Shown here: positions 44,461 through 45,108 of the stretch, piece after piece
How positions within the stretch are numbered: the stretch's first letter is position 1
Layout: each line of letters opens with the position of its first letter
DNA from: Escherichia coli
GTDB lineage: Bacteria; Pseudomonadota; Gammaproteobacteria; Enterobacterales; Enterobacteriaceae
Direction: 5' to 3' (one strand)
Assembly: GCF_051903065.1 (NCBI RefSeq)
Contig: NZ_CP178438.1
Length of the DNA: 64,000 nucleotides
Translations under genes and position numbers: made by a program
The notes under the pieces: model-generated
What the model was told of the DNA's origin: nothing
The model's database searches: none
What the model saw: the letters and a program-made list of their open reading frames with translations, nothing else

Positions 44461-45108
44461 CAGGTTCACGCAGCACTGGCGTCAGGGCATTGATTGTCGC
44501 TTTCACTGATTTGCTCCGGTTTCCCGTGGTCAGACTGCGCACTTTCTCCTTCAGCCTGTTCACACTCGTCAGGGCTATTTTCAGCTTCAACTGTTTGTGC
44601 CATGTCATACTGTACCCGAGGAACTTCTGCTCCCACGGGCGCGCCACCGCGCTCTTCTTCTCATTCACTTTCTGCTTCAGTTTGTTCTCTACGACGTCCT
44701 GATACCATCCAGCAATGGCCGCCCTGCGGCATGCCTTCCTGCCATTTCTCTCTTTGCCCGTCCCGGACTATTTCCTCTTTCAAGTAGCGGCGTATCAGCC
44801 TCAGCACCCGCCTGTCCTTTATCGTACTGGCCAGACGCGTCATCAGGAGTCTGTGATCCACACGGTCGAAGAACTTCTCCAGATTTATATCCACCACCCA
44901 CCGTTTGCTGCCCCGTATATAATGCTGTGCCTATTGCACTGCCTGCCATACGTTGCGTCCCAGCCGGAAACCGTGCCTAGAGTCTGAGAAGCTTTTGTCC
45001 ACGATGGCGCTTAAATGTTGCGCTATAGCTATAGCCTGCTGGATAGGCCTATCCACCACTGTCGGGATGCCTAAGGTTCTCACGCCGCCATCATGCAGCT
45101 CTGACGGA
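44461..45108 (-). pseudogene. Group II intron reverse transcriptase/maturase remnant (frameshifted, truncated at both ends by IS elements)
   Basis: Fragments ...GVRTLGIPTVVDRPIQQAIA...SRHGFRLGR... and ...FFDRVDHRLLMTRLASTIKDRRVLRLIRRYLK... match RT motifs of group II intron-encoded proteins. Confidence 0.6.

What the first reader, a model, noticed from the sequence alone, without database searches (positions are those of the whole stretch)
44461..45108. Group II intron reverse-transcriptase remnant, with a candidate detached intron 5' segment at 28962..29393
RT motifs are clear in three frameshifted ORFs on the minus strand, truncated by the IS256-like end (44460) and the IS600-like terminus (45109). 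Separately, the sequence after the dehydrogenase terminator begins gtgcgcc at 28962, reminiscent of a group II intron 5' end, and abuts the IS3-family terminus at 29394. Under the proposed inversion these two pieces would flank a single IS600::IS30 insertion, but the RT lacks its N-terminal ~70 residues, so the reconstruction is incomplete and uncertain.
Basis: inference. Interest (0 to 1): 0.35.

Follow-up and report, generated by a model that had tools for sequence, protein, structure and literature searches.

The report
Dead, IS-shattered class C group II intron
The two flagged pieces are the halves of one long-dead group II intron of the known E. coli E.c.I6 family. It landed behind a gene's terminator, was split by an IS600 insertion, and its halves were then separated by a 15-kb inversion, which is ordinary genome debris.

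Summary

- **5' piece:** window 28962-29403 (+) is the first 442 nt of a class C (IIC) group II intron. Rfam RF02001 scores 89 bits. It starts GTGCG right after the alcohol-dehydrogenase terminator hairpin.
- **RT piece:** window 45108-44467 (-) is the reverse-transcriptase/maturase remnant of the same copy.
- **Same copy:** the two pieces abut exactly in intron coordinates and share the 3-bp IS600 target duplication TCC. In 96 complete E. coli genomes they lie colinear around one IS600.
- **Family:** the intron is 92% identical to E.c.I6 of CFT073 and 94% to an intact plasmid copy. That copy's protein is closest to GsI-IIC RT.
- **Decay:** the "missing ~70 N-terminal residues" are an internal 254-nt deletion, not a gap in the reconstruction. 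The copy also lacks the YADD active site, the C-terminal part of the maturase domain and domains V-VI, and it carries stops and frameshifts. It is inert.
- **Inversion:** the inversion runs between two identical inverted IS30 copies. An un-inverted IS600::IS30 intermediate exists in other strains.
- **Coordinates:** two boundaries need small corrections: 29403 rather than 29393, and 44467 rather than 44461.

Interest is low. This is one more fossil of a known family.

The parts
28930..28961 (+). Rho-independent terminator of the Zn-dependent alcohol dehydrogenase gene (hairpin 28930-28955, T run, then GT). It is the DNA target and 5' exon of the intron.
   Evidence: Terminator scan. The same hairpin sits in the intron-free locus of strain EC187792. 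Hairpins also lie just upstream of three other family copies.
28962..29403 (+). 5' piece of the intron: domains I-III plus the start of domain IV, equal to E.c.I6 nt 1-500 with internal deletions of 18 and 40 nt. The last 3 nt (TCC, 29401-29403) are one copy of the IS600 target duplication.
29071..29222 (+). Match to Rfam RF02001 (group-II-D1D4-3), 89 bits. Intact relatives score 137-139 bits; the 18-nt deletion lies inside this match.
29404..30342 (-). Right 939 nt of the IS600 copy that split the intron.
   Evidence: Colinear with the intact IS600 of AMSCJX02. IS600 family name and 98.7-99.1% identity. Junctions.
30343..31563 (-). IS30 copy A, one arm of the inverted repeat that bounds the inversion.
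   Evidence: 1221/1221 identical to copy B.
39127..39139 (.). Original 3' exon flank (AGCGCAGAAAAGG...) running into the convergent GntR-family gene at 39140-39811 (-). It is now 10 kb from the 5' exon.
   Evidence: Comparison with the empty site in EC187792.
43513..44466 (-). IS1414-like (IS256-family) fragment whose end truncates the intron 3' of maturase residue 363.
44467..45108 (-). RT/maturase remnant, equal to E.c.I6 nt 498-1432. Lesions: a 254-nt deletion, a 6-nt duplication, a ~130-nt deletion that removes YADD, a -1 frameshift and in-frame stops. Its first 3 nt (rc of 45106-45108, TCC) are the second copy of the IS600 target duplication.
45109..45432 (+). Left 324 nt of the same IS600. 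It is followed by 3 nt (CGT, 45433-45435) that match the flank of the other IS30 copy rather than IS600.
45436..46656 (+). IS30 copy B, the other arm of the inverted repeat.

Best explanation
One copy of a class C (IIC) group II intron of the E.c.I6 family retrohomed into the DNA just behind the terminator hairpin of an alcohol-dehydrogenase gene. The site lies in a tRNA-associated genomic island, between that gene and a convergent GntR-family gene.

IIC introns work this way (established knowledge, not tested on this copy). The intron RNA and its reverse transcriptase form a particle. The particle recognises a terminator stem-loop plus a few bases of pairing, reverse-splices into the DNA and copies itself. 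The protein lacks an endonuclease domain.

The copy then decayed in several steps:
- Small deletions hit the ribozyme domains.
- A 254-nt deletion between 7-nt repeats removed the start of the ORF.
- A ~130-nt deletion removed the YADD catalytic motif.
- IS600 inserted 498-500 nt into the intron and duplicated TCC.
- An IS1414-like element cut off everything 3' of maturase residue 363, including catalytic domains V and VI.

In a minority lineage that includes this window, IS30 then entered the IS600. Recombination with a second, inverted IS30 copy about 15 kb away flipped the intervening DNA. That left the 5' piece on the plus strand at 28962-29403 and the RT piece on the minus strand at 45108-44467.

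The remnant can neither splice nor move.

Shown here: the identity of the pieces, their adjacency, the lesions, the un-inverted forms and the empty site. Inferred: the original retrohoming event, the order of the decay steps and the exact recombination path of the inversion.
For: - **Intron RNA:** RF02001 at 89 bits, with GTGCG at the 5' end.
- **Family:** 92.1% identity to E.c.I6 (CFT073 4320108-4321914) over 982 aligned nt. 93.7% to the intact 1919-nt copy on plasmid pN50b.
- **Published class:** E.c.I6 is listed as class C in Table S2 of PMC3522654.
- **Class shown here:** the intact relative's 462-aa LtrA has RVT_1 and GIIM only, with no nuclease domain. Its best PDB match is GsI-IIC RT at E 2e-141, followed by other IIC RTs.
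- **Target type:** all four family copies examined lie 6-11 nt after a hairpin.
- **Empty site:** an intron-free allele of the locus exists in strain EC187792.
- **Same copy:** the pieces meet at E.c.I6 nt 498-500 with TSD TCC.
- **Un-inverted forms:** the pieces are colinear in 96 genomes. A colinear IS600::IS30 intermediate with a canonical AC duplication exists in WEC and FDAARGOS_536.
- **Window-type junction:** it is present in 4 genomes over the full query and in 24A16CRGN010 over part of it. The 8 genomes counted at >=80% coverage include the three colinear IS600::IS30 intermediates.
- **Inertness:** YADD (aa 264) falls in a deletion and stops are present. RF00029 (domains V-VI) finds nothing in the window but does hit the intact relatives. 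E.c.I6 nt 1433-1807 is absent from the window and from related loci.
Against: - No single crossover explains both IS30 junctions. The IS600-left/IS30 junction reads GCCGT instead of the canonical GCAAC, and both IS30 copies are identical. An extra gene-conversion step or another mechanism is needed.
- The fate of the intron's 3' end is unknown. 26 nt of unexplained sequence (39101-39126) lie between an IS4 end and the 3' exon.
- The 5' exon ends TTTTTTGT here but TTTTTTT in the only empty site found. That site is about 7-9% diverged, so the exact insertion point is fixed only to within 1-2 nt.
- Retrohoming itself is inferred, not observed.
Confidence: 0.93

Rival explanations
1. The two pieces come from two different intron insertions, one behind the ADH terminator and one elsewhere in the island, and only look like halves of one element.
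For: They are 15 kb apart on opposite strands in this window. The family has more than one copy in some genomes (up to 3 places per genome).
Against: The pieces are exactly contiguous in intron coordinates, with a shared 3-bp IS600 duplication. They flank one IS600 colinearly in 96 genomes. Their near-identical (>=99%) copies occur in similar numbers of records (165 and 154).
Confidence: 0.02
2. The minus-strand RT ORFs belong to a non-intron reverse transcriptase, such as a retron, an Abi/DRT defence RT or a diversity-generating retroelement.
For: Pfam RVT_1 hits on the fragments are weak and below the gathering score. RefSeq annotates the ORFs only as hypothetical proteins.
Against: The DNA is 89-95% identical to annotated ltrA genes lying inside complete introns that have D1-D4 and D5-D6 Rfam hits. 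A GIIM (maturase) segment is present. The protein is 87% identical to the intact IIC LtrA.
Confidence: 0.01
3. The inversion and the second IS30 copy arose together in one step. IS30 underwent duplicative intramolecular transposition from the X-IS30-IS911 site into the IS600 hot spot. IS30 insertion followed by homologous recombination was not involved.
For: - Both IS30 copies are 1221/1221 identical to each other and to the single local copy in CRE1540.
- The IS30 in the colinear intermediates differs from them at 2-6 positions.
- The IS30/IS600-right junction is at the canonical hot-spot position.
Against: - Colinear IS600::IS30 intermediates exist, so a two-step route is available.
- The one-step model predicts GCAAC at the new left junction, but GCCGT is observed.
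- Either model needs an extra conversion step.
Confidence: 0.3
4. The inverted arrangement is an assembly artefact caused by repeated IS elements.
For: The breakpoints lie in 1.2-kb repeats, a classic source of misassembly.
Against: The same RT-IS600L-IS30-IS911 junction is found at 99.8-100% identity in four independent complete genomes: ZF8-1, 23CRST027, 23CRST031 and FY10. 23CRST031 is colinear with the window over 28697-55000.
Confidence: 0.02

Closest known systems
E.c.I6, a bacterial class C group II intron of E. coli (reference copy CFT073 NC_004431 4320108-4321914, in the selC island; PMC3522654 Table S2)
   Same: - 92% nucleotide identity over the retained 982 nt.
- Identical 5' end GTGCGCCGTGACTGGCGC.
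- Both sit just after a terminator hairpin.
- Both have disrupted ORFs.
   Different: - This is an independent insertion at another site: the ADH terminator in a tRNA-Arg island rather than downstream of grpO.
- It is far more decayed. It is split by IS600, lacks the 3' 375 nt and has four internal deletions.
- It is not among the E.c.I6 entries (1a, 1b, tr1) of the 2012 survey.
Intact plasmid-borne relatives (pN50b, L002 2208-4126; pLR-71-1_3, L003 2250-4126), annotated ltrA
   Same: - 93.7% and 91.8% identity to the remnant.
- Same domain order, with RF02001, RF01998 and RF00029 hits.
- pLR-71-1_3 shares the target motif TTGT before the insertion point.
   Different: - They have uninterrupted 462- and 448-aa ORFs and complete domains V-VI.
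- They carry an extra 19 nt (a second GCGCC...GGCGC hairpin) near the 5' end. The remnant and E.c.I6 both lack it.
GsI-IIC (Geobacillus stearothermophilus) and B.h.I1 (Bacillus halodurans), the characterised IIC introns
   Same: - The family's protein matches GsI-IIC RT at E 2e-141 over its whole length.
- There is no endonuclease domain.
- Insertion behind terminator stem-loops matches what is described for IIC introns (PMC1702495 abstract).
   Different: They are different species and different intron lineages. Those introns are active, and this copy is a fossil.
Other fragmented group II introns in Escherichia/Shigella mobile DNA (111 fragments catalogued in PMC3522654)
   Same: It is a degraded intron embedded in an IS-rich island, with no full-length partner in the same region.
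   Different: None of significance. This is one more example.

Membership tests
Group II intron | 5' end consensus GUGYG | tested here: met
   GTGCG at 28962-28966, in register with the 5' ends of E.c.I6 and the plasmid copies.
Group II intron | Domain I-IV RNA structure recognised by a covariance model | tested here: met
   RF02001 at 89.3 bits (cut-off 32) at 29071-29222. RF01998, present in intact relatives, is lost here because a 40-nt deletion falls inside it.
Group II intron | Catalytic domain V and branch-point domain VI | tested here: not met
   No RF00029 hit anywhere in the window. E.c.I6 nt 1433-1807 is absent. Relatives have the hit. The window therefore holds a remnant of a member, not a functional member.
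Group II intron | Intron-encoded protein with RT and maturase (X) domains inside domain IV | tested here: met
   Fragments give RVT_1 and GIIM hits, weak individually. They are 87% identical to aa 114-236 of an intact LtrA. YADD and the C-terminal half of the maturase domain are missing.
Bacterial class C (IIC) | Insertion just downstream of a transcription-terminator stem-loop | tested here: met
   Hairpin at 28930-28955 plus a T run, with the intron starting at 28962. The same pattern holds at the CFT073, pN50b and pLR-71-1_3 copies. An empty terminator site is seen in EC187792.
Bacterial class C (IIC) | Protein groups with IIC RTs and lacks an endonuclease domain | tested here: met
   Tested on the intact relative only. 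It has RVT_1 and GIIM with no nuclease domain, and its top PDB hits are GsI-IIC RT and other IIC RTs. This cannot be tested on the remnant because its C-terminus is gone.
Bacterial class C (IIC) | Short EBS1/IBS1 and EBS3/IBS3 pairings, with no EBS2 | not tested
   Noted only: the window and pLR-71-1_3 sites both end in TTGT, and both introns contain ACAA in the D1 region at 29123-29135. No structural assignment was made.
E.c.I6 family | High nucleotide identity to the reference copy along its length | tested here: met
   92.1% over 982 aligned nt. The full-length family members are 94-96% identical to one another.
IS600 (IS3 family), the element that splits the intron | About 1264-bp element with terminal inverted repeats and a 3-bp target duplication | tested here: met
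   The two parts sum to 1265 nt. Ends are TGAGGTAGCC... and TGAGGTGTAC.... TSD is TCC. 98.7-99.1% identity to elements that RefSeq names IS600 family.

The most novel reading that the evidence does not exclude
The E.c.I6 family may still be mobile in E. coli rather than extinct. In the 2012 survey all four full-length E.c.I6 copies had disrupted ORFs. Here, plasmids pN50b and pLR-71-1_3 carry copies with uninterrupted RT/maturase ORFs and complete ribozyme domains. Family copies sit behind at least four different terminators. On this reading the window's fossil records one of several independent retrohoming events, and the plasmid copies would be a native E. coli IIC intron that could be tested for terminator-directed mobility.
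Probability: 0.35. Interest if true: 0.25.

Novelty: new member of a known kind. Interest (0 to 1): 0.1.

Why it matters
It matters little for biology.

- **Annotation:** about 1.1 kb of DNA is labelled "none" or "hypothetical protein" in RefSeq in roughly 150-165 complete E. coli genomes. It can now be labelled as an E.c.I6-type intron remnant.
- **Structural marker:** the split intron is a convenient marker. The contiguity of its two halves gives the ancestral order of this IS-dense island. It shows that the same ~15-kb segment was inverted independently in at least two lineages.
- **Intact relatives:** the plasmid-borne copies may be useful to people studying IIC intron mobility in a native enterobacterial host.

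Tried and rejected
- **Rfam on the RT region:** a permissive scan of 43800-45600 found no intron RNA domain, only a chance-level IS009 hit. The RT piece carries no domain V or VI.
- **Search for the intron's 3' end:** E.c.I6 nt 1433-1807 found nothing in the window or in loci L001, L004, L005 and L007.
- **Two IS600::IS30 composites:** I tested whether the inversion joins two such composites and rejected it. The sequences outside the two IS30 copies share only 8 and 23 nt. Blastn finds no similarity between the IS600 and the X/IS911 chimera.
- **Single-event models for the inversion:** a single crossover and a one-step IS30 transposition each fail to reproduce one junction. The path is left unresolved.
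- **EBS1/IBS1 pairing:** inspected by eye across four sites. It was consistent for two and ambiguous for two, so it is not used as evidence.
- **2012 survey tables:** checked for this fragment and it is not listed.

Full report
**1. What is at the two places**

A gathering-threshold Rfam scan of the whole window gives three hits. One is group-II-D1D4-3 (RF02001) at 29071-29222 on the plus strand, 89.3 bits against a cut-off of 32 (alignment).

The segment begins GTGCGCC at 28962. This is six nt after a terminator-like hairpin (28930-28955) and T run that close the zinc-dependent alcohol dehydrogenase gene.

On the minus strand of 44456-45134, three short ORFs give weak RVT_1 and GIIM Pfam hits. 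The DNA is 89-95% identical to annotated ltrA genes of E. coli. A permissive Rfam scan of 43800-45600 finds no intron RNA domain there.

**2. Which intron**

About 1,200 of 5,426 complete E. coli genomes hold something similar to either piece. I took three full-length relatives:
- pN50b: L002 2208-4126, 1919 nt, ltrA 462 aa.
- pLR-71-1_3: L003 2250-4126.
- The published E.c.I6 copy of CFT073: NC_004431 4320108-4321914, L006 1609-3415.

The last of these comes from Leclercq and Cordaux, PMC3522654, who list E.c.I6 as ORF class C with a disrupted ORF.

The intact copies carry RF02001, RF01998 and RF00029 (domains V-VI) hits. The pN50b protein has RVT_1 and GIIM and no nuclease domain. Its best solved relative is GsI-IIC RT (E 2e-141), followed by other IIC enzymes.

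All four copies, including the window's, lie 6-11 nt downstream of a hairpin. That is the hallmark of IIC introns (PMC1702495 abstract; PMC3522654).

The window remnant is 92.1% identical to E.c.I6 and 93.7% to pN50b over the aligned bases. The full-length copies are 94-96% identical to one another. The remnant is therefore a diverged member of the E.c.I6 family, class C.

**3. The two pieces are one copy**

- The 5' piece aligns to E.c.I6 nt 1-500 and ends ...GACGGCATCC at 29403.
- The reverse complement of the RT piece begins TCCGTCAGAGCTGCATGATGG at 45108 and aligns from E.c.I6 nt 498.
- The shared TCC is the 3-bp target duplication of the IS3-family element whose two ends (TGAGGTGTAC... 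at 29404, TGAGGTAGCC... at 45109) touch the pieces.
- The two IS parts sum to 1265 nt. They are 98.7-99.1% identical to elements that RefSeq names IS600 family.
- In strain AMSCJX02 the order is ADH, 5' piece, one intact IS600, RT piece, IS256-family fragment, all colinear. 96 genomes cover at least 80% of that 2,348-nt colinear query in one place.

**4. State of decay**

Compared with the family, the remnant shows these lesions:
- Deletions of 18 nt (inside RF02001, which lowers its score from ~139 to 89 bits) and 40 nt (inside RF01998, which is lost).
- The IS600 insertion.
- A 254-nt deletion between two GATGGCG repeats. It removes annotated LtrA residues 29-113. That includes Met47, where homology to GsI-IIC RT begins and which may be the true start.
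- A 6-nt duplication.
- A ~130-nt deletion that removes YADD (residue 264).
- A 1-nt deletion and in-frame stops.
- Truncation after residue 363.

At the truncation point, homology to introns ends at 44467, and other IS1414 copies begin to match within about 3 nt. E.c.I6 nt 1433-1807 comprises the rest of the maturase and domains V-VI. It is absent from the window and from four related loci.

The copy cannot splice, reverse-transcribe or move.

**5. Empty site**

Strain EC187792 has the same MFS-transporter and ADH genes, about 92% identical. They are followed directly by the terminator and a convergent GntR-family gene, with no intron.

Its sequence ...ACGCGTTTTTTT|AGCGCAG... matches the window up to 28959 on one side and from about 39127 on the other. 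This supports 28962 as a true mobile-element boundary and identifies the 3' exon.

In the window, that exon is preceded by an IS4 left end and 26 nt of unknown origin.

**6. The inversion**

Relative to AMSCJX02, the window has a single breakpoint inside the IS600.
- The right 939 nt of IS600 (29404-30342) is joined to IS30 copy A (30343-31563, minus strand).
- The left 324 nt (45109-45432) is joined to IS30 copy B (45436-46656, plus strand).
- Beyond copy A lies the left part of another IS3-family element (orfA MSGKRYPEEFKIEAV...).
- Beyond copy B lies the right part of IS911.
- In CRE1540 and AMSCJX02 those two parts flank a single IS30.

Strains WEC and FDAARGOS_536 carry the colinear intron with a canonical IS30 insertion in the IS600...GCAAC|IS30|ACAGCG, with a 2-bp duplication AC. 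The same IS600::IS30 composite occurs elsewhere in E. coli.

The window-type junction is found in full in four other complete genomes and in part in 24A16CRGN010, so it is not an assembly artefact.

The simplest history is IS30 insertion followed by recombination between inverted IS30 copies. One detail does not fit. Both window IS30 copies are identical to each other and to the local copy of CRE1540. They differ at 2-6 sites from the IS30 of the intermediates. The IS600-left junction reads GCCGT like the other element's flank, not GCAAC.

Two routes could account for this. One is gene conversion across the junction, anchored in the 14-nt stretch ATATTAAAAAAAGC shared by both IS3-family elements. 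The other is a one-step duplicative IS30 event followed by conversion. I cannot choose between them.

**7. Verdict**

The object is an inert fossil of a known intron family in an IS-dense island. Such fragments are common in Escherichia and Shigella: 111 were catalogued in PMC3522654. This particular insertion is not in that catalogue and is unannotated in RefSeq, so it is at most a new member of a known kind. Interest is low.

Noticed in passing
window 30343-31563 and 45436-46656; junctions at 31564-31580 and 45419-45435: The two inverted IS30 copies are 1221/1221 identical. Both carry the same left flank ATATTAAAAAAAGCCGT. The IS600-left/IS30 junction therefore has CGT where a canonical IS30 insertion in IS600 has AAC. 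This implies gene conversion, or a crossover in the 14-nt IS3-family frameshift-window sequence shared by IS600 and the neighbouring IS3-family element.
   Followed up: partly
L004 (CRE1540) 6345-6710 and 21790-21797; window 45067-45074 and 47013-47020: Many genomes (CRE1540 type) carry a different, independent inversion of nearly the same ~15-kb segment. One breakpoint lies 42 nt inside the RT remnant and the other inside the IS911 right part. The blast matches overlap by 8 nt at each junction, though only about 5 nt (CCTAA) are actually shared, and there is no IS at the junction.
   Followed up: partly
window 39101-39126: 26 nt (CGGCTATACCGGAGGTATATTTATTC) of unknown origin lie between an IS4 left end (ending ...GGCATTA at 39100) and the original 3' exon of the intron site. 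They match neither the intron's 3' end nor anything else fetched.
   Followed up: partly
L002 2208-2245 and L003 2250-2287: The intact plasmid-borne introns have 19 extra nt just after GTGCGCC, forming a second GCGCC...GGCGC hairpin. E.c.I6 and the window remnant lack it. Both plasmid copies keep uninterrupted ltrA ORFs, although pLR-71-1_3 has a 42-nt in-frame deletion.
   Followed up: no
window 39140-39811 (GntR) and 39812-40411; L001 12161-13239: The GntR gene and the remnant of a GGDEF gene keep their original orientation relative to ADH in the window. They are inverted in the colinear-intron genomes (AMSCJX02). At least two nested inversions have therefore affected this island, and the window-type one restores the gene orientation of the intron-free locus.
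   Followed up: partly
window 38481-38603 (-): A strong Rfam isrC hit (150 bits) lies inside the orfA region of an IS3-family element (ORF 38288-38635). The sRNA model seems to be matching IS sequence.
   Followed up: no
window 22005-22076 (+); L005 4060-4942: A tRNA gene (tRNA-Arg next to yfdC in strain 23CRST031) followed by an integrase fragment marks the attachment site of the genomic island that holds the whole region.
   Followed up: no
L010 (DH10B) 1780-3327; L009 (CD306) 2440-3660: IS30 sits at the same position of IS600 (after ...AAAAAAAGCAAC, just past the A7G frameshift site) in unrelated loci, including E. coli K-12. This suggests an IS30 hot spot, or spread of an IS600::IS30 composite.
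   Followed up: partly
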